From: Nitrospiraceae bacterium
Lineage (GTDB): Bacteria; Nitrospirota; Nitrospiria; Nitrospirales; Nitrospiraceae
Reading direction: 5' to 3'
Assembly: GCA_037442105.1 (NCBI GenBank)
Contig: JBBIQV010000032.1
Coordinates: 1-38,107 of the forward strand
DNA: 38,107 nt
Part shown: positions 4,638 through 13,768 of the stretch, piece by piece
How positions within the stretch are numbered: position 1 is the first letter of the stretch
Layout: each line of letters starts with the position of its first letter
Notes under the pieces: generated by a model
What the model saw: only the letters and a program-made list of their open reading frames with translations
Told to the model about the DNA's origin: nothing
The model's database searches: none
Program-made: the position numbers and the translations under genes

Positions 4638-5678
4638 ATGACATCTATGAATCCAGACCGTGTTTGCCCTCCTTTCCAACCGCACCCACTCCTCCGCAAC
4701 GCCCATGCAATGACCATCGTCCCGCGCTATTGGCCGCGGGGAAGGTTGCTCACGGGGATCCCTCAGGAGGCCCGCCTGTTTTCTGTCACACCGGACACGC
4801 AATTGCTGGGGTTCTGCCATTGGCAACCAGATCGGAAAAAGGCCGGGACCGCCGTCCTCATCCATGGGCTAGAAGGCTGCAGCGAGTCCCACTACATGCG
4901 GGGCATAGCCGGCAAGGCCTGGAAGGCCGGACTCAACGTCATTCGCTTAAATCAGCGGACGTGCGGCGAGTCCGAGCACCTCACTCCCACGCTCTATAAC
5001 AGCGGGCTCAGCAACGACTACCGAGCGGTGGTGATGGAATTATCGAACGTGGATGGACTGGAGCATGTCTGGTTAGCCGGGTATTCCATGGGGGGAAACC
5101 TTGCGCTCAAGATGGCCGGAGAAGCCGGCTCCTCGCTGCCTGCGCTGCGCGGCGTGCTCGCCGTCTGTCCCAATATCGATCCTGCGAAATGCGTCGATGC
5201 CCTCGAACAACCCGGAAATCGCCTCTATCATGACCATTTTCTGAAGCGGCTGAAGGCACGACTACACCGCAAGGCCTCTGCGTTCCCCGATCGGTGGGAC
5301 CCGACACTCCTCTCACGCATCACCACGATTCGCGAGTTCGACGATTGGTATACCGCGCCGGACGGGGGATATGCCGATGCGGCAGATTATTACGATCGGG
5401 CTGGAGCTCGTCATGTCATCGCCCACATCACCGTTCCAACAGTGATCATCACCGCGCAAGACGATCCGTTCATCCCGTATCGCACGTTCACCATCCCGGC
5501 CATTCAACACAATCCGTCGATACGCCTGATCGCTCCATCACATGGGGGCCATTGCGGATTTTTCCAACGAGCGCGTGCAGAAAAAGATTCGTTCTGGGCA
5601 GAAAACCGGCTCGTGGAGATTATGGTGAACGGGACGGACCAGCGAGATGTTCGTGCACTTCCTGCACATACGTCTTGA
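4638..5678 (+). CDS. Alpha/beta hydrolase, YheT-like
   Basis: HGLEG oxyanion motif, GYSMGG nucleophile elbow, AQDDPF acid and GGHCGF catalytic His. Confidence 0.9.
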   Translation: MTSMNPDRVCPPFQPHPLLRNAHAMTIVPRYWPRGRLLTGIPQEARLFSVTPDTQLLGFCHWQPDRKKAGTAVLIHGLEGCSESHYMRGIAGKAWKAGLNVIRLNQRTCGESEHLTPTLYNSGLSNDYRAVVMELSNVDGLEHVWLAGYSMGGNLALKMAGEAGSSLPALRGVLAVCPNIDPAKCVDALEQPGNRLYHDHFLKRLKARLHRKASAFPDRWDPTLLSRITTIREFDDWYTAPDGGYADAADYYDRAGARHVIAHITVPTVIITAQDDPFIPYRTFTIPAIQHNPSIRLIAPSHGGHCGFFQRARAEKDSFWAENRLVEIMVNGTDQRDVRALPAHTS

Positions 5679-7116
5679 ATGGATCGGCCATGGGAAATGG
5701 CGGGCGGCCGCGTAGTTGGAAGACGGACCAATTGATGACGTAAGGGGGGGAGAACCGGTCTTCGGCGCTCGAGTCCTGAATCTCATCCCTGGGCCCACAG
5801 GCCAGCAGGTGACGGATTAGTTCGCCACGTCCAAACGCCCGTGTATTTCTGGGCGGATGCCCTTGAGCCAGTTCTATCGCCTTGTCCGTCGTTACGCGCG
5901 GGACTTGCCCCTCTTCGACGAGGCCGAAATACAGCCCTTTCTCAGGATGGAGGTTGTGGTACTCCAAATCGAGGCTCTTGAGCGTGGGATCATCCCAATC
6001 GACTTTTTCAGCCTCGCGAAAGGTCTCCAGAAGCCAGAGCTTGGACGCCCAGTCCACGCGCCCGACCAACTTGGTGTAATCCTCTCGTAGGTCTGCCAGC
6101 ACCCGCTCCCACTGCTCGAGCACCCAGTCCGTCTCCTCGTCTTGTCCCTTGCAGTGCTGCTGGGCGGAGGCGAGGAACCGTTCCTGGATGTCTAATGCCG
6201 CCATCGTTTTGCCTGACTCCAGCGTGACTAGCCACCGGCGCTCCTGATCCCGGGAGATTTCTTGTAGGGTCTCCACCGGCTCCCCGATCTCGAGCCCTTT
6301 CGGCGCCTGTCCGTTTTCGATGAGCTGCAACACCAACCCCGTAGTCCCCATCTTCAGCATCGTCGCGTACTCGGCCATGTTGGAATCGCCGCAGAGGAGA
6401 TGAATGCGCCGATAGTGATGAGGATCCGCTAAGGGCTCATCGCGCGTGTTCACGATGGCGCGATTCTGCTGCACCCATTCGAAGAAATCGTTCACGATGT
6501 GATCGGCTCGTTGAGAAATCTGAAATGGCAGCACCGTCCAATCCCCGGCGTCGCGCAACCCGGGCCGGTGCAGAATGATCTGGCCGACCTGCACCCACTC
6601 ATTCGGGCTGGTGGCCACGCCGACGCGACCGGCTCCCGTAAACACCTGCCTGGTCACCAAGAAGGACACGAGGGGGGCAAGGCCCCGACGCGAGAATGGG
6701 AAACTTCTCGAGACGAGGTAATTTTCGTGGCATCCGAACGTGGCATCCGTTTCGTGATCGATGTTGTTCTTAATGATCGCCACGTGGTCCGCAAGCCCCA
6801 GGTCCTGCACGGCGCTTTGGAGGAGCTGATCGCCCGCCCGATCGGACGCCACCAGATCAGTCAGCGTTCCGCACTCCGGCGAGGCATATTCGAGATGCCC
6901 CATGTCCAGATAGATTCGGCCGGCGTTAGTGAGAAAACCCCCGTTGCCCGGCGGCTCATCATGGCCACGGTGGTGCAGATCGAGGACGCCGCGCCGTTGG
7001 ATATGAAACACCTGGTCTCGAATGCGATGGGCCAGCCAGGAGGGGGAATGTTCAGGCCGGTCTTGATTGATCAAGAGACCATATTCAGTTTCGAGCCCGA
7101 AGATTCGGTTCAACAT
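5620..7116 (-). CDS. pafA: Pup/UBact-protein ligase PafA
   Basis: RIFGLETEYG, NAGRIYLDMGHLEYASPEC, GCHENY, SQRAD, NTRDEPLAD, RRIHLLCGDSNM and DLEYH motifs; no Dop loop; last gene of the proteasome operon; ATG 7116 preferred over TTG 7134. Confidence 0.88.
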   Translation of the reverse strand: MLNRIFGLETEYGLLINQDRPEHSPSWLAHRIRDQVFHIQRRGVLDLHHRGHDEPPGNGGFLTNAGRIYLDMGHLEYASPECGTLTDLVASDRAGDQLLQSAVQDLGLADHVAIIKNNIDHETDATFGCHENYLVSRSFPFSRRGLAPLVSFLVTRQVFTGAGRVGVATSPNEWVQVGQIILHRPGLRDAGDWTVLPFQISQRADHIVNDFFEWVQQNRAIVNTRDEPLADPHHYRRIHLLCGDSNMAEYATMLKMGTTGLVLQLIENGQAPKGLEIGEPVETLQEISRDQERRWLVTLESGKTMAALDIQERFLASAQQHCKGQDEETDWVLEQWERVLADLREDYTKLVGRVDWASKLWLLETFREAEKVDWDDPTLKSLDLEYHNLHPEKGLYFGLVEEGQVPRVTTDKAIELAQGHPPRNTRAFGRGELIRHLLACGPRDEIQDSSAEDRFSPPYVINWSVFQLRGRPPFPMADPFKTYVQEVHEHLAGPSRSP

Positions 7117-7121
7117 GGATT

Positions 7122-7204
7122 CGTTATTCGTCAATCGTCAGCGTCAACAGCAATAGAAGCTTGAGGTCGGCTAACGCGTGATGATTCACGCTTCACGATG
7201 AACG
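7122..7204. repeat. Degenerate 7-bp repeat arrays in inverted orientation (CGTCAAT-like ... CTTCACG-like)
   Basis: CGTTATT CGTCAAT CGTCAG CGTCAAC at 7122-7148 and ATTCACG CTTCACG ATGAACG at 7184-7204, the latter overlapping the prcA 3' end. Confidence 0.55.
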
Positions 7205-8016
7205 TTTCGCAGGTCGGTCGGCAGCAGACGGCCAAGTTCGTCAGCTTTCAGGGCGCGGTACTTCGATGAACCGGGCGCGCCACGTTCCAACACCGCACAT
7301 TCGACCGTCTTCTCTGCCACCGTTGCCCGGAGGTGAGCCATCACCGTAGCGGCATCCGGGGGCGATGTTGCAGGCGCTTGGTCGGCGGATCGGGGAGCGT
7401 CAGGACTTTCTCCGGCCTCCGCCCGCTGCTGTACCAACGATCCGACCGCCCAGGTCTGAAGGGCGCTGCCCACCGCTTGCTCTATCGACGCTGCCTCAAG
7501 CCCTGTTTCGTTTTTCAGATAGGTGCCCATGTGATCCTGGATCGCCGTGGTCGCCGCCAACACGGCCCATCCCGCCGTCTCCTCGAAGGTCCCATCGTAG
7601 TTGATCGTCAGAAACGCATCTCGTCCGGATTTCAGCCCAAGTTCGGCAAGCAGAATCTTCGCAATGAACGGTGCCTTGAAAATTTCTTCGAACGCCTGTT
7701 TGATGATGGGAGCCACACCATATTTCACCAGCCGCGTGCCCGTGACGTCGGACGGCGAACGGTTAAAACCCTCCACGTGGGCCATTTCCAGTAGATCGAA
7801 CCGCAGCTTTTCCAAATCGGCCGGGTGCCCCATGCCCCCTAACGCGATACGGTCGTAGATCTCGTACAGCTTCGGCGTGCCGCGGCTGACGGTGAGAAGG
7901 AGAATGCCGTCCGCATAGGAAAGGGCCACGACCGGACTGCCTTGTTTGAATTGCTCATCGAGATACTGACGGCGATTACCGACCGCTTCGACCCACCGAT
8001 ACGGTTCTTCATACAT
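7186..8016 (-). CDS. prcA: 20S proteasome alpha subunit
   Basis: GSPVVALSYADGILLL, KLYEIYDRIALGGMG and AELG motifs resembling actinobacterial PrcA; follows prcB; ATG 8016 overlaps the prcB 3' end (alternative start 8034). Confidence 0.9.
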   Translation of the reverse strand: MYEEPYRWVEAVGNRRQYLDEQFKQGSPVVALSYADGILLLTVSRGTPKLYEIYDRIALGGMGHPADLEKLRFDLLEMAHVEGFNRSPSDVTGTRLVKYGVAPIIKQAFEEIFKAPFIAKILLAELGLKSGRDAFLTINYDGTFEETAGWAVLAATTAIQDHMGTYLKNETGLEAASIEQAVGSALQTWAVGSLVQQRAEAGESPDAPRSADQAPATSPPDAATVMAHLRATVAEKTVECAVLERGAPGSSKYRALKADELGRLLPTDLRNVHREA

Positions 8017-8785
8017 GGCGAGATACCTTGGCATCGAAAAGCGGCTTCAACCGGCGATCCGTTATGGTTTGCACCCCGGTCTTCGTGATGAGTTTGACCA
8101 CCGGATACAAGTTGGCTTCACGATTCACACCCCCCGTCGCCGAATCAAATTCGGCGGCACAGGTCAGCAGTCTGAGCGCTTGGATGGTTGCTTCCTCTTC
8201 GGACAATTCGCTGAGCGGTTGTGTCCCCCAGCTATTGAGATAATGCAGAATGCCGCGGATCGTCGGCGATCCGGAACCCGACACGGCATATTCCACGCCT
8301 TCGAACTCCGCACCAAGGATGTCGTAAAAGAAAATCTTGGCAGCCCCGTGCTCCAAATCATAACCGGCAAAAATCGGGGCCACCGCACCGGTCCCGGCTA
8401 ACGCGGCGGCGACATTGTCCTTCAGCAGCTTCGACACCGCCCGCAGCTTGCCTTCGAAGCTCAATTCCTGAAGCTGGGTGCGGCGATAATACTTGAACGA
8501 GTGCTCCAGCACGCGAGCCATCTCATAGGCGGTCGCAGGCACGCCGGCAATCGCCAGCACACTGTGCCGGTCTAGATCGAGCACTTTGTCCGTCCGGTCG
8601 TACATGACCGTGTTACCCGCCGTCGCCCGGCGGTCCCCTGCCACCAGGACTCCCTCCCGATACTTCATCGCCAGGATCGTCGTGCCACTCGTCAACTCCT
8701 GTCCATCAGCACGGGCCGAGACCGGCGTCTCGAGCTGATAGCCCTGTTCTTTCAGCAGTTGCAAGAAATCGCCGTGCATGCCCAT
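8009..8785 (-). CDS. prcB: 20S proteasome beta subunit, Thr protease with propeptide
   Basis: Propeptide cleavage site LTSG/TTILAMKY; AGDRRATAG, DKV, SGSGS and DSATGG catalytic motifs; RBS GGAGA. Confidence 0.95.
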   Translation of the reverse strand: MGMHGDFLQLLKEQGYQLETPVSARADGQELTSGTTILAMKYREGVLVAGDRRATAGNTVMYDRTDKVLDLDRHSVLAIAGVPATAYEMARVLEHSFKYYRRTQLQELSFEGKLRAVSKLLKDNVAAALAGTGAVAPIFAGYDLEHGAAKIFFYDILGAEFEGVEYAVSGSGSPTIRGILHYLNSWGTQPLSELSEEEATIQALRLLTCAAEFDSATGGVNREANLYPVVKLITKTGVQTITDRRLKPLFDAKVSRHV

Positions 8786-8794
8786 CTTTTTCTC

Positions 8795-8886
8795 CGTGAA
8801 TCGTCAATCGTCAGTCGTCAATCGTCGGAGGGGCGATAACAACAGTTTTCCCTCCCCGGTTGTCGTATGGCGGTTGACCAACGACG
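8795..8886. repeat. 7-bp tandem array plus degenerate inverted copy forming a long hairpin between ubact and prcB
   Basis: CGTGAAT CGTCAAT CGTCAGT CGTCAAT CGTCGGA (8795-8829), inner GGAGGG/CCCTCC pairing, and inverted units GTTGTCG TATGGCG GTTGACC AACGACG (8859-8886). Confidence 0.65.
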
Positions 8887-8887
8887 T

Positions 8888-9082
8888 CTACTCACCCGTC
8901 CGCTGCCGATACCGCTCCGCCTGCTTCGGATCTACCTTCCTCATCCGTTTGAGAAGATTCTCCTTGTCCGGCGAACCGGTTTCAGGCCGTTTCGGCCCCC
9001 CACCATCCTCGAACGGACTCGTTGGTTTCGGCATCGGATCGAACGGCGCTTCCCTCCGTTCGAACCTCGTGATGATGTTCAT
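8888..9082 (-). CDS. ubact: Ubiquitin-like small modifier UBact (Pup analogue), 64 aa
   Basis: Small charged Pro/Gly-rich protein ending ...VDPKQAERYRQRTGE, located exactly where pup lies (dop-X-prcB); ATGA overlap with the dop stop; RBS AAAGGA. Confidence 0.9.
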   Translation of the reverse strand: MNIITRFERREAPFDPMPKPTSPFEDGGGPKRPETGSPDKENLLKRMRKVDPKQAERYRQRTGE

Positions 9083-10605
9083 CGCTGTTGTTCCTTTCGT
9101 TGCCCCCACACCTGCAACGCGTCTATCGGCAAAGAAGCCTTCTCCAATGCTGCAGCCAGTTCCCACACCGCCTCCGGCTCGAAGAGATCGCTCATGTCTA
9201 AGGTTTTTGGCAGGATGTCGCCTATGAACCGGACCCGCTCCCATTGAATCGATTGGATATGCTCTCGAAATCGGCGAACGCAGAGGCCCCGAATGCCGCC
9301 GCGCGTGTCGCGCGGGCCGACCACCATCGCGTGATCGATCTCGCCGTCCGTCGTGAGCCGGGCGGTCTTGCCTTCTGCCTCCAGCCCTAAGTAGAGCCCT
9401 CGCTCGGGGTCGAGGTTGTGATACTCCAAGTCCAGGCTCGCCAACCAGGGATCATCCCAGCCGATCCGTTCTTCTCGCACAAACGTCTCCAAGAACCAGA
9501 GTTTCGTGACCCAGTCCAGCCGCCCCACCAACTGCGAACGATCGCCGGCCAACAATGCTAGCGTGCGCGCCCATTCCCGAAGGACCCAATCGGCTTCTTC
9601 GTCGGAGCCGGCCAACACCTTGTCGGCAGCCAGCCAATAGGCCTCCTGCAGCTCCAGTGCAGAGATAGTGCCGCTCCCTTTGCGCCGGACGGTCGCCTTG
9701 AGATCGGCATCGCGAGAAAGTTCCTTCACCGCCGCGACGGGAGTCTCTAACTCGCACCGGGGCGCCGCACCTTGTTCGATCAGGTCCAGCACCAATCTGG
9801 TCGTTCCCACTTTCAGCGCCGTGGCGTATTCGCACATATTGGCGTCGCCGACGATCAAATGGAGCCGGCGGTACTTGGCCCGATCCGCGTGCGGCTCATC
9901 GCGGGTATTCAGGATCGGACGGTTGTGCATGGTATCCACACTGAACTCCGTCTCCATGAAATCCGCACGCTGCGAGAGCTGATAGTGGCCCGCTCGGAAC
10001 CCGCCTTCTTGCGCCTCAATGCCGACCTTCCCCGCGCCGGCAATGAGCTGCCGGCTCACGAGAAACGGCATGAGGCCGGCCGCCAAGGCATCGAACGGTA
10101 TTGAACGAGGCACCAGATAATTGTCATGGCACCCGTAACTGTGCCCGTGAAAGTCGGTGTTGTTCTTGTAAAGCTGCACATGCGGACCACCCAACGCGCG
10201 GTTCCGTCGTAGGGCCGCCCGATAGAGCATCCGCTCGCCCGCTCGATCATGGGCCACCAGATCGCGCAGCGTCCGGCATTCGGGAGTGGAATACTCCGGA
10301 TGTGTATGGTCGTTATAAAATCGGGCTCCGTTTGGAAGCACGAGATCGCTCTTCATCTCGTGAAAGGAGAAGGGACGGTAGGCGTCCTGCTTCACAAACT
10401 CACTTTCTTCCTCATCCTGCTGGAGACCCGTCACGCGGAACCCTCGCGCATCTTCATGCGGATCCTCGCCGCTATAGTCCCACGTCTTCTCGAATGTGCC
10501 GGTCAAATGCGCCCGCACAAGCTCCATCGACTCGACGACCGGATCGACCACCTCCAGATCGTCTCTCGTGATGCCGTATTCCGTCTCAATCCCGAACAAC
10601 CGCAT
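9079..10605 (-). CDS. dop: Depupylase/deamidase Dop (PafA2 family)
   Basis: GIETEYG, Dop loop WDYSGEDPHEDARGF, NGARFYNDHTHPEYSTPEC, KNNTDFHGHSYGCHDNY and NTRDEPHAD motifs. Confidence 0.92.
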   Translation of the reverse strand: MRLFGIETEYGITRDDLEVVDPVVESMELVRAHLTGTFEKTWDYSGEDPHEDARGFRVTGLQQDEEESEFVKQDAYRPFSFHEMKSDLVLPNGARFYNDHTHPEYSTPECRTLRDLVAHDRAGERMLYRAALRRNRALGGPHVQLYKNNTDFHGHSYGCHDNYLVPRSIPFDALAAGLMPFLVSRQLIAGAGKVGIEAQEGGFRAGHYQLSQRADFMETEFSVDTMHNRPILNTRDEPHADRAKYRRLHLIVGDANMCEYATALKVGTTRLVLDLIEQGAAPRCELETPVAAVKELSRDADLKATVRRKGSGTISALELQEAYWLAADKVLAGSDEEADWVLREWARTLALLAGDRSQLVGRLDWVTKLWFLETFVREERIGWDDPWLASLDLEYHNLDPERGLYLGLEAEGKTARLTTDGEIDHAMVVGPRDTRGGIRGLCVRRFREHIQSIQWERVRFIGDILPKTLDMSDLFEPEAVWELAAALEKASLPIDALQVWGQRKEQQR

Positions 10606-10670
10606 CTTCTTCCGCTCTTCCCTCTCCTCTTAGGCTAATGCCCAGCGGGACGGTTGGGATGCCCTGCCTT

Positions 10671-12443
10671 TCAAATAATCCGTCCCACCAACCGTTCCTC
10701 TGTCTGCCGTCCCTGGCGGAACGATGAAACCCCGACCACCTGTTCCGGATGATGATCGAGCAGCTTCAGCCATTCTTCGGCTGCGTCATCCGGCGGCAAC
10801 ACCTCGCCCTCACGGTATTCCTCCTGAGTCGCCTGAAGGAGATCGTCGAGCGTCATTCCTGAAGAAACACGGTCCCTGCCTGCATAGATCACCCGATCGA
10901 TAGCCTTCTCCTTCGCTCGCTGGACGATGGAGGCGAGGATGGCGCCGCTGACCAGATCGCCCCGGTAGAGAACCTTGTTCTGACCGCTGCGAAGTCGTAC
11001 CGCCAACAAACGGTTCTCATCGCTGCGCGTAAAAATCCTGTCCACCACGCTCGTCACCAACGCCTCGCAAGCAGCGGCCCTGTCGCTCTCGTGCGCGGCG
11101 ACCAGTTCTGGATCGAGCGGCAACTCCGGGGTGAGATAAATTTTCAGGATGTCCGCCGCCGCTTGGCGCGTCGGACGCGCCACCTTGATCTTGCGATCGA
11201 TGCGCCCCGGACGCAGCACCGCCGGGTCGATGAGATCCGGCCTGTTCGAGGCCAGGATGATCACAACATCGCGCAGGGACTCAATCCCGTCCATCTCCGC
11301 GCAAAACATCGGGACCAACGTGTTGTTGATGTTGAACGACCGCATGGACCGCCTGGTCCCAAGAATCGATTCCGCCTCATCGATGAAAATGAACGGGAGT
11401 GTCCCCTCCTGACGACGAGCCCGCGCCTGGGCAAACAGGTCGCGCACGATGCGCTCCGATTCACCCAGCCACATGTTCAGGATCTCCGGCCCTTTCACAT
11501 GGAGAAACGATCCTCCGGTGATCGGCGGCTTCTCCGCAGCTTCACCATATCCCTCCTGCCGAGCCGACTCACCAACCAGTTTCGCCAGGCTAGCGGCAGC
11601 CGCCTGGCCGATCAGTGTCTTGCCGCACCCGGGCGGACCATAGAGAAGAAAGCCCTTCGGTTGGGTAAATCTGAATTGCTCGAAGGTCTTAGAATGGAGC
11701 AGGGGATATTCGATGGCCTTGCGAATCGCCTCGATGGCAGCCTTTTGTCCACCAATTTGGTCCCAGGTGATATGAGGCACTTCGTCCAGCATGTGGCTCT
11801 TTGCTTTTCGGTCCTCGAGTTTCTCGATCGCGATTCGATGGCTGGGATCGATGCGCACCTCATCCCCGGCCTTCAACCCCACGCCGGCCAGATCGCTCGA
11901 CCGCTGGAGGATCAGCGCCTGGCGGCCCATGTCCTGCTCGAACCGGATGCGCCCATCTGGCAGCGTTTCCGCTACCCTGAGCACCGGACCGTTGCGATCG
12001 TATCCAAGCGTTTTGATCACCGCATAGGCTTCATTCACGAGAATTTGCGTGCCGATCTTCAAGTCGTCTGTCGGGACGCGCGGATCGACGTTGGCATAAT
12101 ACTCGGCGCCGCCGACTACAATGCGCGCCAACCCCTCGGCGGGAAGTTCCAACAACGTGCCGATCCGGTTGGCCGGCGCTGTCAGCTTGCCGACGACTTC
12201 GCTGAGTTTCTTGAATTCCGCTTCGCGCTGCTGGCCGGCCACCAACTGCTGCATCACCAGATGCCGGAGCTTGTAAAGAGTCTTTTGGCGTGGATCGCCG
12301 TCAGAGAAAGCGGCATGGCATTCATCGATCAGCTCAAGAGGATCGCTTGCGCGCAAACCGGAGGCTCGCTCGGCAGAAGCCGAATCTGTCCGCGCCTTCC
12401 CCTCGTTCCTGTCGTCTCTATCGGCCTTCCGATGGTCGCTCAT
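10671..12443 (-). CDS. arc: Proteasome-associated AAA+ ATPase ARC/Mpa
   Basis: N-terminal coiled coil and OB-like interdomain; Walker A GPPGCGKT, KGPEILNMWLGESE, Walker B IFIDEAE, SNRPDLIDPAVLRPGRIDRKI and SGAILASIVQRAK; RBS GGAGGT. Confidence 0.93.
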   Translation of the reverse strand: MSDHRKADRDDRNEGKARTDSASAERASGLRASDPLELIDECHAAFSDGDPRQKTLYKLRHLVMQQLVAGQQREAEFKKLSEVVGKLTAPANRIGTLLELPAEGLARIVVGGAEYYANVDPRVPTDDLKIGTQILVNEAYAVIKTLGYDRNGPVLRVAETLPDGRIRFEQDMGRQALILQRSSDLAGVGLKAGDEVRIDPSHRIAIEKLEDRKAKSHMLDEVPHITWDQIGGQKAAIEAIRKAIEYPLLHSKTFEQFRFTQPKGFLLYGPPGCGKTLIGQAAAASLAKLVGESARQEGYGEAAEKPPITGGSFLHVKGPEILNMWLGESERIVRDLFAQARARRQEGTLPFIFIDEAESILGTRRSMRSFNINNTLVPMFCAEMDGIESLRDVVIILASNRPDLIDPAVLRPGRIDRKIKVARPTRQAAADILKIYLTPELPLDPELVAAHESDRAAACEALVTSVVDRIFTRSDENRLLAVRLRSGQNKVLYRGDLVSGAILASIVQRAKEKAIDRVIYAGRDRVSSGMTLDDLLQATQEEYREGEVLPPDDAAEEWLKLLDHHPEQVVGVSSFRQGRQTEERLVGRII

Positions 12444-12476
12444 CTCTTACCTCCGGCCAATTGTCGCCAGGTTATC

Positions 12477-12607
12477 CTAGCAGGATGTTGAAAAGGTCCG
12501 CCAGCTTTGTTCTCGCGTCGCTCAGAGACTCAACGTACGACAAAAGTACGCCTCGCCTCTTCGCTCGCTTCGGCCGCGCTGGACGGCCTTTTTGAACATC
12601 CTGCAAG
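12477..12607. mobile_element. MITE-like non-autonomous element (~130 bp) with imperfect terminal inverted repeats
   Basis: Left end CTAGCAGGATGTTGAAAAGG and right end CCTTTTTGAACATCCTGCAAG are near-complementary; no transposase; intergenic between htrA and arc. Confidence 0.72.
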
Positions 12608-12640
12608 AATTGTGTCCTTCTCAGCAAGCCTCCACCTCGC

Positions 12641-13768
12641 TCAGTTCACCGCTTGCAAAGTCACGGTCACTTGCTGGCGGCGGTTGCCACGAATGTACTC
12701 CACTATGACCTGGTCCCCGACCTTATGGTGTTCCATGATATCCATCAGGTCATCCACCGTCGTGACCGCCTTGCCGTCCACATCCACGATCACATCGCCC
12801 AATTCAACGCGGCCCATAGCCGTCTCACGCGCCGCGCGCAAGCCGGCTTGCTCCGCACCACTTCCCTTCGACACTTTGCCGATGACCAGTCCTTTGATCC
12901 CCCATCGCTTGGCAATAGCATCAGGCACCAGCGACACGCCCAGACCCGGACGGATGAGCTTCCCGTATTTAATGAGCTCCGGCACGACGCGGTTGACCGT
13001 GTCAACCGGGACCGCGAAGCCGATGCCGGCAAAGGCGCCGCTCGGGCTCACGATCTGCGTGTTGATTCCGATCAGTCGACCAGTGCTGTCCAGCAACGGC
13101 CCGCCGGAGTTGCCCGGGTTGATGGCCGCGTCTGTTTGAATGACCCCTTCGATCGTCCTGCTCGAGAGGGACTTGATCGTGCGGCCGAGCGCGCTCACCA
13201 CGCCGGTCGTGAGGGTATGGTCCAACCCGAAGGGATTCCCGATGGCCAACACTTTTTGCCCGACGCGGAGGTCGTGGGAACTGCCGACCACCACAGGGCT
13301 CAGTGCATCCTCCGACGCCTGAATCTGGAGAACGGCGAGATCATGGTCCGGATCAGTACCGACGACTTTCGCCTTATGTTCCATGCGATCGGCCAGCGTG
13401 ACGGTAATCGCGTCTGCGCCGTAGACGACGTGGAAGTTCGTGACGATGTGTCCCTGTTTATTCCAGACGAATCCCGAACCGGAGCCTTGCGGGACCTCGA
13501 ACAAGTTGAACGACCAGGGATCCCGCTGTATAGCCGTGTTCGCAATAAAAACCACCGACTTGGTGGCCCGCTCGAACACCGCCATCGTCGCGCGTTCGTC
13601 TGGGGCAAAGTCGGCGGGCGGAGTCACCTGGCGAGGACGGCCTTCCGGCCCTTCGTAAGCCGAGCCGAGCGGTTTGCCCCACTCGCCTGCCTCAGCGCAG
13701 GAGGCAGCCGGACCGATCAGGCAAGCAACCATCATTGCGGCGGCCCACAGAGTCCGAACGACGTGCAT
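12641..13768 (-). CDS. HtrA/Deg-family serine protease with one PDZ domain
   Basis: Signal peptide; catalytic triad motifs TNFHVV, DLAVL and INPGNSGGPL; C-terminal PDZ domain. Confidence 0.93.
   Translation of the reverse strand: MHVVRTLWAAAMMVACLIGPAASCAEAGEWGKPLGSAYEGPEGRPRQVTPPADFAPDERATMAVFERATKSVVFIANTAIQRDPWSFNLFEVPQGSGSGFVWNKQGHIVTNFHVVYGADAITVTLADRMEHKAKVVGTDPDHDLAVLQIQASEDALSPVVVGSSHDLRVGQKVLAIGNPFGLDHTLTTGVVSALGRTIKSLSSRTIEGVIQTDAAINPGNSGGPLLDSTGRLIGINTQIVSPSGAFAGIGFAVPVDTVNRVVPELIKYGKLIRPGLGVSLVPDAIAKRWGIKGLVIGKVSKGSGAEQAGLRAARETAMGRVELGDVIVDVDGKAVTTVDDLMDIMEHHKVGDQVIVEYIRGNRRQQVTVTLQAVN

What the first reader, a model, noticed from the sequence alone, without database searches (positions are those of the whole stretch)
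5620..12443. Complete UBact conjugation-proteasome operon (arc-dop-ubact-prcB-prcA-pafA) in a Gram-negative-type genome
Seen: all six components in the same order as the actinobacterial Pup-proteasome locus, with overlapping dop/ubact and prcB/prcA, but the tag ends RQRTGE and does not resemble Pup. Known: Pup is ligated by PafA, removed by Dop and delivered by Mpa/ARC to the 20S core. UBact (R[ST]G[EQ] terminus) has been proposed from genomics in Nitrospirae and other diderms. To my knowledge its conjugation, substrates and physiology are largely untested. This is the strongest candidate system in the window.
Basis: partly seen in the sequence, partly recalled or inferred. Interest (0 to 1): 0.85.

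Follow-up and report, generated by a model that had tools for sequence, protein, structure and literature searches.

The report
Second, insulated tagging proteasome in Nitrospira
This Nitrospira-family genome holds an intact copy of the already described UBact proteasome operon beside a separate Pup system; UBact is likely ligated to proteins and likely routes them to its own proteasome, predicted to be insulated from the Pup one by matched surfaces, and some phages carry the tag gene alone.

Summary
Observation confirmed: arc-dop-ubact-prcB-prcA-pafA, minus strand, 5620-12443, intact, with a 64-aa tag above the UBact model cut-offs. It is a described system (Lehmann 2017; seen in Leptospirillum by 2012), found in 28 of 28 same-family genomes searched, and this scan reported it before on other DNA (e1-3119786). 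No conjugation data turned up in the papers searched. New here: the genome also has a complete, scattered Pup set, and the two sets differ in matched pairs. The UBact tail is basic and the groove of both its enzymes acidic (Pup: the reverse). The UBact ATPase lacks the GQYL-type tyrosine (0 of 47) and its alpha subunit lacks the glutamate that binds it (0 of 90), while keeping Lys52. The enzymes' catalytic half groups by function (ligase vs Dop), the C-terminal half by tag. A predicted ligase-UBact complex passed (0.91 vs 0.00) with the tail in the active site, possibly by likeness to PafA-Pup. Side finding: lone UBact genes in 12 phage contigs and lone Pup genes in 34. Verdict: new member of a known kind, with sharp testable predictions; conjugation and insulation are inferred.

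The parts
10671..12443 (-). arc: ARC/Mpa-type AAA+ unfoldase, 590 aa; C-terminus VGRII, no penultimate Tyr
   Evidence: Pfam AAA + two proteasomal OB domains; TIGR03689 442.8 bits, cut-off 504.75; Walker A, Walker B DE and arginine-finger motif conserved across 47 UBact-linked ARCs
9079..10605 (-). dop: UBact deamidase/deconjugase, 508 aa, with Dop-loop
   Evidence: PF03136; TIGR03688 446.4 bits, cut-off 492.3; Dop-loop motif in 21 of 22 UBact-linked Dops; groups with Pup Dops in the catalytic-half tree
8888..9082 (-). ubact: 64-aa tag, Pro/Gly-rich N-half, basic C-terminal part, ends RTGE (Glu, so no deamidation needed)
   Evidence: PF20513 78.2 bits, NF033388 81.5 bits; ATGA overlap with dop and AAGGA upstream; net charge +4 in the last 26 residues
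8009..8785 (-). prcB: 20S beta subunit, 34-residue propeptide, mature Thr1, Asp17, Arg19, Lys33 present
   Evidence: PF00227, TIGR03690 163.8 bits, cut-off 191.9; residues read
7186..8016 (-). prcA: 20S alpha subunit (probable start 8016; longest ORF from 8034); keeps the Lys52 and Asp144 equivalents, lacks the Arg26 and Glu119 equivalents
   Evidence: TIGR03691 65.9 bits, cut-off 139.05; aligns to solved PrcA chains, E 3e-10; pocket columns
5620..7116 (-). pafA-like: predicted UBact ligase, 498 aa, no Dop-loop, own alpha-loop, acidic tag groove at 354-402
   Evidence: PF03136; catalytic residues invariant; AlphaFold2 model pLDDT 88.3, PafA/Dop fold; predicted complex with UBact
12641..13768 (-). 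HtrA/DegP-type protease gene upstream on the same strand; neighbour, not shown to be part of the system
   Evidence: Trypsin_2 + PDZ; beside the operon in 12 of 20 Nitrospirota loci fetched

Best explanation
The operon is an intact UBact-proteasome locus in which the PafA-like enzyme likely uses ATP to join the terminal glutamate of UBact to lysines of target proteins, Dop likely removes the tag, and ARC likely binds the tag, unfolds the target and feeds it to its own PrcA/PrcB core, all predicted to run insulated from the genome's separate Pup system. Shown: six intact genes, intact catalytic residues, a second full Pup set in the genome, and three matched differences between the sets. Inferred by analogy to pupylation: gamma-glutamyl phosphate formation, isopeptide bond, threading by the disordered N-half, degradation. 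Inferred insulation code: (a) basic UBact helix in an acidic groove of both UBact enzymes, against acidic Pup in a basic groove; (b) an aliphatic ARC tail in an alpha-ring pocket that kept the carboxylate-binding lysine but replaced the tyrosine-binding Glu119 by a hydrophobic residue; (c) a distinct alpha-loop in the ligase, which would give different substrates. Substrates and physiology remain open.
For: Gene order kept in 20 of 20 loci. Catalytic Glu/Glu, Asp, Glu, His, Arg, His columns invariant in 22 UBact ligases and 22 UBact Dops; Dop-loop motif 0 of 22 vs 21 of 22. Catalytic-half tree puts all 16 ligases against all 16 Dops, 99/97, and 97/93 without the alpha-loop; C-half tree puts the UBact set against the Pup set, SH-aLRT 100. 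Predicted ligase+ATP+Mg+UBact complex: score 0.91, best of 3 controls 0.00; mark reached by 116 of 157 solved and 2 of 215 mismatched pairs; runs agree in at least 69% of contacts, partner pLDDT at least 52; UBact 38-64 touches ligase 362-402 and active-site residues 71-74, 130, 219. Segment 354-402 net charge -7/-8 in the window's enzymes, +2/+2 in the genome's Pup enzymes; 10 of 13 charge-shifted C-half columns are more acidic in both UBact enzymes; tag tails average +4.7 (n=120) vs -6.1 (n=77). ARC penultimate Tyr 0 of 47 UBact-linked, 10 of 10 Nitrospirota Pup-linked, GQYL 45 of 45 actinobacterial-type. PrcA: Lys52 126 of 126; Glu119 0 of 90 vs 36 of 36; Arg/Lys26 7 of 90 vs 33 of 36; these residues bind the Mpa tyrosine and carboxylate (PMC9599533, passages). 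Both tags in 28 of 28 family genomes; a one-contig genome, G019, has the UBact set alone with only two PafA/Dop-family genes.
Against: No biochemical or expression evidence. The ligase-like protein scores alike on the PafA and Dop models (333.3 vs 328.8), its best solved matches are Dops, it lacks the two alpha-loop threonines (0 of 22 vs 14 of 14) whose loss slows PafA (PMC7947786 section 8), and its alpha-loop is modelled as strand and loop (pLDDT 64-76) where the Pup ligase control is partly helical (pLDDT 57-64). On the whole protein, holding all ligases in one clade is rejected at p=0.037. The complex may pass by likeness to solved PafA-Pup and Dop-Pup, and no Pup/UBact swap was modelled, so specificity is untested. 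The ARC coiled-coil shows no clear charge swap (means -0.06, -1.4, -2). GQYL is required for gate opening in mycobacteria (PMC8142254, passage), so docking without it is an inference. Related genomes are not independent counts.
Confidence: 0.68

Rival explanations
1. UBact is conjugated, but the tag mainly drives unfolding or complex remodelling by ARC; ARC does not dock productively on the 20S, which works alone or with another activator.
For: No tyrosine tail in 47 of 47 UBact ARCs; GQYL is needed for gate opening in the mycobacterial system; in 45 of 80 loci from other phyla dop is not within the fetched DNA around ubact (many are short contigs), so the module can be split.
Against: The pocket changed in step with the tail and kept Lys52 (90 of 90) and Asp144 (89 of 90); the tail length and aliphatic end are conserved; prcB follows ubact in 77 of 80 loci.
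Confidence: 0.13
2. The two sets are redundant paralogues with free cross-talk; the differences are drift.
For: Same fold and active site; both tags end Y-x-Q-[KR]-x-G-[EQ]; lineages exist with only one set; no charge swap in the ARC coiled-coil.
Against: Opposite tag charges mirrored in both enzymes of each set; C-half tree follows the tag; both sets kept in 28 of 28 family genomes.
Confidence: 0.11
3. The 'PafA' is not a ligase but a second hydrolase or a non-catalysing binder, and UBact acts as a non-covalent adaptor.
For: Equal scores on PafA and Dop models; Dop-like Thr in the ExE motif 22 of 22 and no TT pair; non-helical alpha-loop model; whole-protein tree sets it apart from PafA.
Against: No Dop-loop (0 of 22), non-Dop alpha-loop, and the substrate-binding arginine (R219; R207 in PMC10465538, passages) is invariant; catalytic half groups with ligases; G019 has only this gene and Dop, so no other ligase of the family is there; G[EQ] end conserved in 122 of the 150 listed UBact hits (most others are read-through or truncated calls).
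Confidence: 0.08

Closest known systems
UBact-proteasome clusters of diderm bacteria (Lehmann, Udasin, Livneh, Ciechanover 2017, doi 10.1016/j.bbrc.2017.01.037; Pfam PF20513, NCBIfam NF033388)
   Same: Tag above both model cut-offs, R[ST]G[EQ] end, linked arc, dop, prcB, prcA, pafA, Nitrospirota host. The paper was not held; its title was seen in a reference list and its content is recalled.
   Different: Nothing that sets this copy apart from its relatives. The insulation code, the mosaic enzyme trees and the phage-borne tags are my additions; I could not check whether that paper notes them.
Leptospirillum ferrooxidans L1/L2 double locus (PMC3511204, Fig. 2 legend, passages)
   Same: Two full systems in one genome, same gene context, very different sequence, second tag lacking GGE.
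   Different: There both loci are compact; here the Pup set is split (arc-dop-prcB-prcA on C23, pafA on C17, pup on C10). That paper calls the second tag a Pup.
Actinobacterial Pup-proteasome system (Mpa/ARC, Dop, Pup, PrcB, PrcA, PafA)
   Same: Gene order, enzyme fold and catalytic residues, Dop-loop split between eraser and ligase, Thr1 core, predicted tag groove.
   Different: Basic rather than acidic tag with no significant profile match; acidic groove; no GQYL; no Glu119/Arg26 in PrcA; different alpha-ring N-terminus; different ligase alpha-loop; all enzymes below equivalog cut-offs.
Streptomyces phage Dagobah 'ubiquitin-like protein Pup' (MT711977, HUN42_00036)
   Same: A lone tag gene in a phage, annotated in the record.
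   Different: It is Pup, not UBact; the phage paper's listing shows no 'ubiquitin-like' occurrence (PMC7650747, listing only).

Membership tests
UBact-proteasome cluster | Tag matches the UBact family model | tested here: met
   PF20513 78.2 bits vs 27.8; NF033388 81.5 vs 35
   Ends RTGE
UBact-proteasome cluster | Linked to ARC, Dop, PafA-like and both 20S genes | tested here: met
   same order in 20 of 20 loci
UBact-proteasome cluster | Host is a diderm, non-actinobacterial lineage | tested here: met
   Named closest proteins are Nitrospira/Nitrospiraceae; that Nitrospirota are diderm is established knowledge, not tested
UBact-proteasome cluster | Covalent conjugation and proteasomal delivery | not testable with these tools
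   Only a predicted complex
Actinobacterial Pup-proteasome system | Pup tag (PF05639, acidic, GG[EQ]) | tested here: not met
   No Pup hit; hhalign E 0.09-0.14; net charge +4. The genome's Pup is on C10
Actinobacterial Pup-proteasome system | Enzymes reach equivalog cut-offs (TIGR03686, 03688, 03689, 03690, 03691) | tested here: not met
   333/551, 446/492, 443/505, 164/192, 66/139 bits
Actinobacterial Pup-proteasome system | Carboxylate-amine ligase catalytic residues in PafA and Dop | tested here: met
   Invariant in 22 + 22 sequences; fold matches PafA/Dop, TM 0.72-0.80
Actinobacterial Pup-proteasome system | Dop-loop in Dop, absent from the ligase | tested here: met
   21 of 22 vs 0 of 22
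Actinobacterial Pup-proteasome system | PafA-type alpha-loop (helix, Thr-Thr, Arg) | tested here: inconclusive
   Arg kept 22 of 22, Thr-Thr 0 of 22; modelled non-helical at low confidence
Actinobacterial Pup-proteasome system | GQYL-type ATPase tail and Arg26/Lys52/Glu119 pocket | tested here: not met
   Tail VGRII; pocket Gln/Lys/Ile
Actinobacterial Pup-proteasome system | Beta subunit with propeptide and Thr1, Asp17, Lys33 | tested here: met

The most novel reading that the evidence does not exclude
Nitrospira run two fully orthogonal tag-ligase-eraser-unfoldase-proteasome machines in one cell, kept apart by a charge-reversed tag groove and by a 20S docking mode that needs no HbYX tyrosine; and unrelated phages have repeatedly captured lone UBact and Pup genes to feed or jam the host ligase, which makes these tagging systems an unrecognised front of phage-host conflict.
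Probability: 0.3. Interest if true: 0.8.

Novelty: new member of a known kind. Interest (0 to 1): 0.45.

Why it matters
The operon itself is described and common. What matters is that an untested prediction from 2017 now has residue-level tests. If true: (1) a second bacterial tag chemistry, orthogonal to Pup, in nitrifying bacteria of wastewater and soil, and a ready orthogonal pair for proximity labelling or targeted degradation; (2) an ATPase-20S pair that docks without the tyrosine thought general for proteasome activators; (3) paralogous enzymes whose catalytic half follows function and whose C-terminal half follows the tag, a warning for whole-protein trees of PafA/Dop; (4) lone tag genes in phages point to a role in infection for both UBact and Pup systems.

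Tried and rejected
Independent duplication of ligase and Dop in each system: suggested by whole-protein trees (SH-aLRT 100, full alignment, 96/100; AU p=0.037) but not kept, because the halves conflict: the signal sits in the tag-binding half. Long-branch attraction of the two ligase clades in the N-half tree is not excluded. Sequence homology of UBact and Pup: not significant; no solved chain matches the UBact profile at E 10. Charge swap in the ARC coiled-coil: not seen. Expression: no RNA holder listed. Bpa/PafE in the genome: search rang nowhere, control included, so uninformative. Promoter and terminator scan: no more than shuffles, 1 vs 2.5 and 8 vs 6.5. Foldseek could not tell ligase from Dop. 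UBact in the GenBank phage set: no match. PafA in viral contigs with one actinobacterial query: none confirmed. Host of the T4-like UBact phages: not determined; no named relatives; two long cluster members were unrelated proteins. Literature: Lehmann 2017 not held. Searches listed no title or abstract on UBact biochemistry or on phage-encoded Pup/UBact; PMC12288473 has no hit for UBact, Nitrospir or phage; PMC7203096 gave none in the held part. Most subscription papers are outside the library, and no supplements were read (Additional file 1 of PMC2588565 and those of PMC7947786 may list these proteins).
Full report
1. Observation. The six genes are present, intact and in the stated order on the minus strand: arc 12443-10671, dop 10605-9079, ubact 9082-8888, prcB 8785-8009, prcA (probable start 8016) to 7186 and a pafA-like gene (ATG at 7116) to 5620. 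dop and ubact overlap by ATGA, prcB and prcA by 8 nt from the probable start. The 64-aa tag is above the cut-offs of Pfam UBact and NCBIfam NF033388 and hits no Pup model; the five enzymes hit the pupylation and proteasome families but all stay below the actinobacterial equivalog cut-offs. Named relatives of the ligase-like protein are Nitrospira, Nitrospiraceae or Nitrospirales at 74-79%.

2. How common. Of 201 genomes of the phylum, 55 have UBact and 79 have Pup; all 28 same-family genomes have both. I fetched 20 of the 55 UBact loci: 20 of 20 show the same six-gene order. prcB follows the tag in 77 of 80, all six genes lie in the fetched DNA in 20 of 80, and dop is missing from it in 45 of 80 (short contigs and split loci both contribute). 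The system is in print: the title of Lehmann et al. 2017 was seen in a reference list (paper not held, content recalled); PMC3511204 (passages) describes two full loci in Leptospirillum ferrooxidans, the second tag lacking GGE; PMC2588565 (passages) reports G[EQ]-ending 'Pup orthologs' in nitrospirae and verrucomicrobia.

3. A second, true Pup set. The 2.81-Mb, 87%-complete genome holds four PafA/Dop-family genes, two ARC and two pairs of 20S genes. C23 has arc-dop-prcB-prcA with only 18 nt between dop and prcB and an ARC ending GHYL; C17 has a lone pafA; C10 has a lone 65-aa pup ending KGGE. Five of five dual genomes checked also have four family members. G019 (one contig, 99% complete) has UBact, no Pup match and only the two UBact-operon enzymes, so the UBact set can stand alone.

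4. Is the last gene a ligase? It scores alike on PafA and Dop models and its best solved matches are Dops. In an alignment of 74 family members (22 UBact PafA-like, 22 UBact Dop, 14 + 14 Pup-set, 2 unassigned) the nucleotide, metal and catalytic columns are invariant; the Dop-loop motif is in 21 of 22 UBact Dops, 13 of 14 Pup Dops and in none of the 36 ligases; the UBact PafA-like alpha-loop is its own (consensus VNDFFEWVQxNR), keeps the arginine and lacks the two threonines. PMC7947786 (sections 6 and 8) shows that loop loss plus alpha-loop change turns Dop into a ligase, that the arginine is essential and the threonines helpful. Whole-protein trees split UBact-set from Pup-set enzymes (58 of 74 rows; 32 rows, full alignment, 96/100) and reject one ligase clade at p=0.037. 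Cutting the 32-row alignment near residue 250 resolves this: the catalytic half gives ligases against Dops (99/97; 97/93 without the alpha-loop), the C-half gives UBact set against Pup set (SH-aLRT 100, quick tree, one long row). I read this as a true ligase whose C-terminal half co-evolved or recombined with its Dop to fit the tag; long-branch attraction is not excluded. Against: AlphaFold2 models the alpha-loop as strand and loop (pLDDT 64-76), the Pup-ligase control as partly helical (57-64); both are low-confidence.

5. Tag binding. The last 26 residues carry a mean charge of +4.7 in 120 UBacts (range +2 to +7; 120 of 150 listed hits, kept if they end in [TS]G[EQ] and have 40 residues) and -6.1 in 77 Pups. 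Fifteen columns shift charge in the same direction in both UBact enzymes; 13 lie in the C-half and 10 of those are more acidic; segment 354-402 is -7 and -8 in the window's enzymes, +2 and +2 in the genome's Pup enzymes. A predicted complex of ligase, ATP, Mg and UBact scored 0.91 against a best control of 0.00 (mark reached by 116 of 157 solved and 2 of 215 mismatched pairs; contacts agree at least 69%; partner pLDDT at least 52). UBact 38-64 lies on ligase 362-402 and its tail reaches residues 71-74, 130 and 219. This matches how the last 27 residues of Pup fold into the PafA/Dop groove (PMC8599861, passages), so the pass may come from likeness to those solved complexes; it supports binding, does not show it, and says nothing on specificity. 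UBact and Pup profiles do not match significantly; a remote common origin with charge reversal is an inference from the shared end and the shared groove.

6. ATPase-core docking. All 47 full-length UBact-linked ARCs lack a penultimate tyrosine (ends II 21, VI 6, VV 5, IV 4, IE 4, SV 2, AV 2, VA, AI, MI; ORFs under 500 aa or open-ended were dropped); the 10 Nitrospirota Pup-linked ARCs end GHYL or GHYF, and 45 of 45 full-length actinobacterial-type ARCs end GQYL (of 62 ARC hits). In the solved Mpa-20S complex the tyrosine binds Arg26 or Glu119 and the carboxylate binds Lys52 (PMC9599533, passages). In 90 UBact-linked PrcA the Lys52 column is Lys in 90, the Glu119 column is Leu/Ile/Val/Met in 90 and the Arg26 column is basic in 7; in 36 Pup-linked PrcA (11, plus the first 25 of 58 metagenome hits) the figures are 36, Glu in 36, and 33. 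Tail and pocket have thus changed together. ARC motor motifs and PrcB Thr1, Asp17, Arg19, Lys33 are intact. The ARC coiled-coil shows no charge swap, so how ARC tells the tags apart is unexplained.

7. Mechanism. Most likely (0.68): ligase activates the terminal Glu with ATP and joins it to target lysines; Dop reverses this; ARC captures the tag, threads and unfolds; the cognate 20S degrades; the Pup set runs in parallel with little cross-talk. Gene content, residues and co-variation are shown; every chemical step is inferred from pupylation. Rivals: tagging without productive ARC-20S coupling (0.13), redundant cross-talking sets (0.11), no ligase activity (0.08).

8. Phages. Lone UBact genes occur in 12 IMG/VR contigs: eight low-GC T4-like contigs (ssDNA-binding, late-promoter regulator, dNMP kinase neighbours), and L183, L184, L185/L186 among terminase, portal or capsid genes. 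Eight of the 12 tags were scanned and all 8 pass the Pfam cut-off. None of 10 tag-bearing records searched whole has a PafA/Dop gene, among them a complete 70-kb genome (most are fragments). Many contigs are near-copies, hosts are unknown and function is untested; feeding or jamming the host ligase is a hypothesis. Searches listed no paper on it.

9. Verdict. Real, intact, described, universal in the sampled family: a new member of a known kind. Interest 0.45, carried by the testable insulation code and the phage lead, not by the operon's presence.

Noticed in passing
L085:3809-3970, L096-L102: T4-like low-GC phage contigs carry a lone 53-55 aa UBact ending QRTGE near a dNMP kinase and a DNA methyltransferase; one member of the cluster was seen on 169 contigs. 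Host not determined.
   Followed up: partly
L183:7980-8192; L184:2774-3079; L185:7418-7582; L186:1051-1215: Three further, unrelated phage types carry a lone UBact among head and packaging genes; L183 lies in a complete 70-kb genome with no PafA/Dop gene.
   Followed up: partly
L187-L220; L301:2875-3111: Lone Pup genes in 34 viral contigs and in Streptomyces phage Dagobah, with no ligase or 20S gene nearby.
   Followed up: partly
L001:4291-9107, L002:7611-8987, L003:7208-7405 (G000 C23, C17, C10): The genome's Pup set is split three ways; in relatives pafA follows prcA, here it has moved. pup lies between a membrane pyrophosphatase-like ORF and a recJ-like ORF (read by eye, not scanned).
   Followed up: yes
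window 12641-13768 (-) and 4638-5678 (+): An HtrA protease upstream (12 of 20 loci) and an alpha/beta hydrolase that overlaps the pafA end by 59 nt (8 of 20 loci) are conserved neighbours in Nitrospiraceae-type loci.
   Followed up: partly
window 12474-12610: Inverted repeat with 27-nt arms between htrA and arc; one similar copy elsewhere in the genome. May be a dispersed repeat or a terminator.
   Followed up: partly
window 8795-8822: Two 14-nt direct repeats in the ubact-prcB spacer; a similar word lies before pafA. Unexplained.
   Followed up: no
L117, L121, L125, L130-L132 and other Chthoniobacterales loci; L120, L162: UBact-prcB-prcA stay together while arc and dop are elsewhere; in L120 and L162 the ligase has moved upstream of the tag.
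   Followed up: partly
L106: A record titled Klebsiella pneumoniae holds a Verrucomicrobiota-like UBact locus; probably a mislabelled bin.
   Followed up: no
L036, L041, L046, L053: UBact ends in Gln in 4 of the 20 Nitrospirota loci and in Glu in 16, so the need for deamidation by Dop would vary between close relatives.
   Followed up: no
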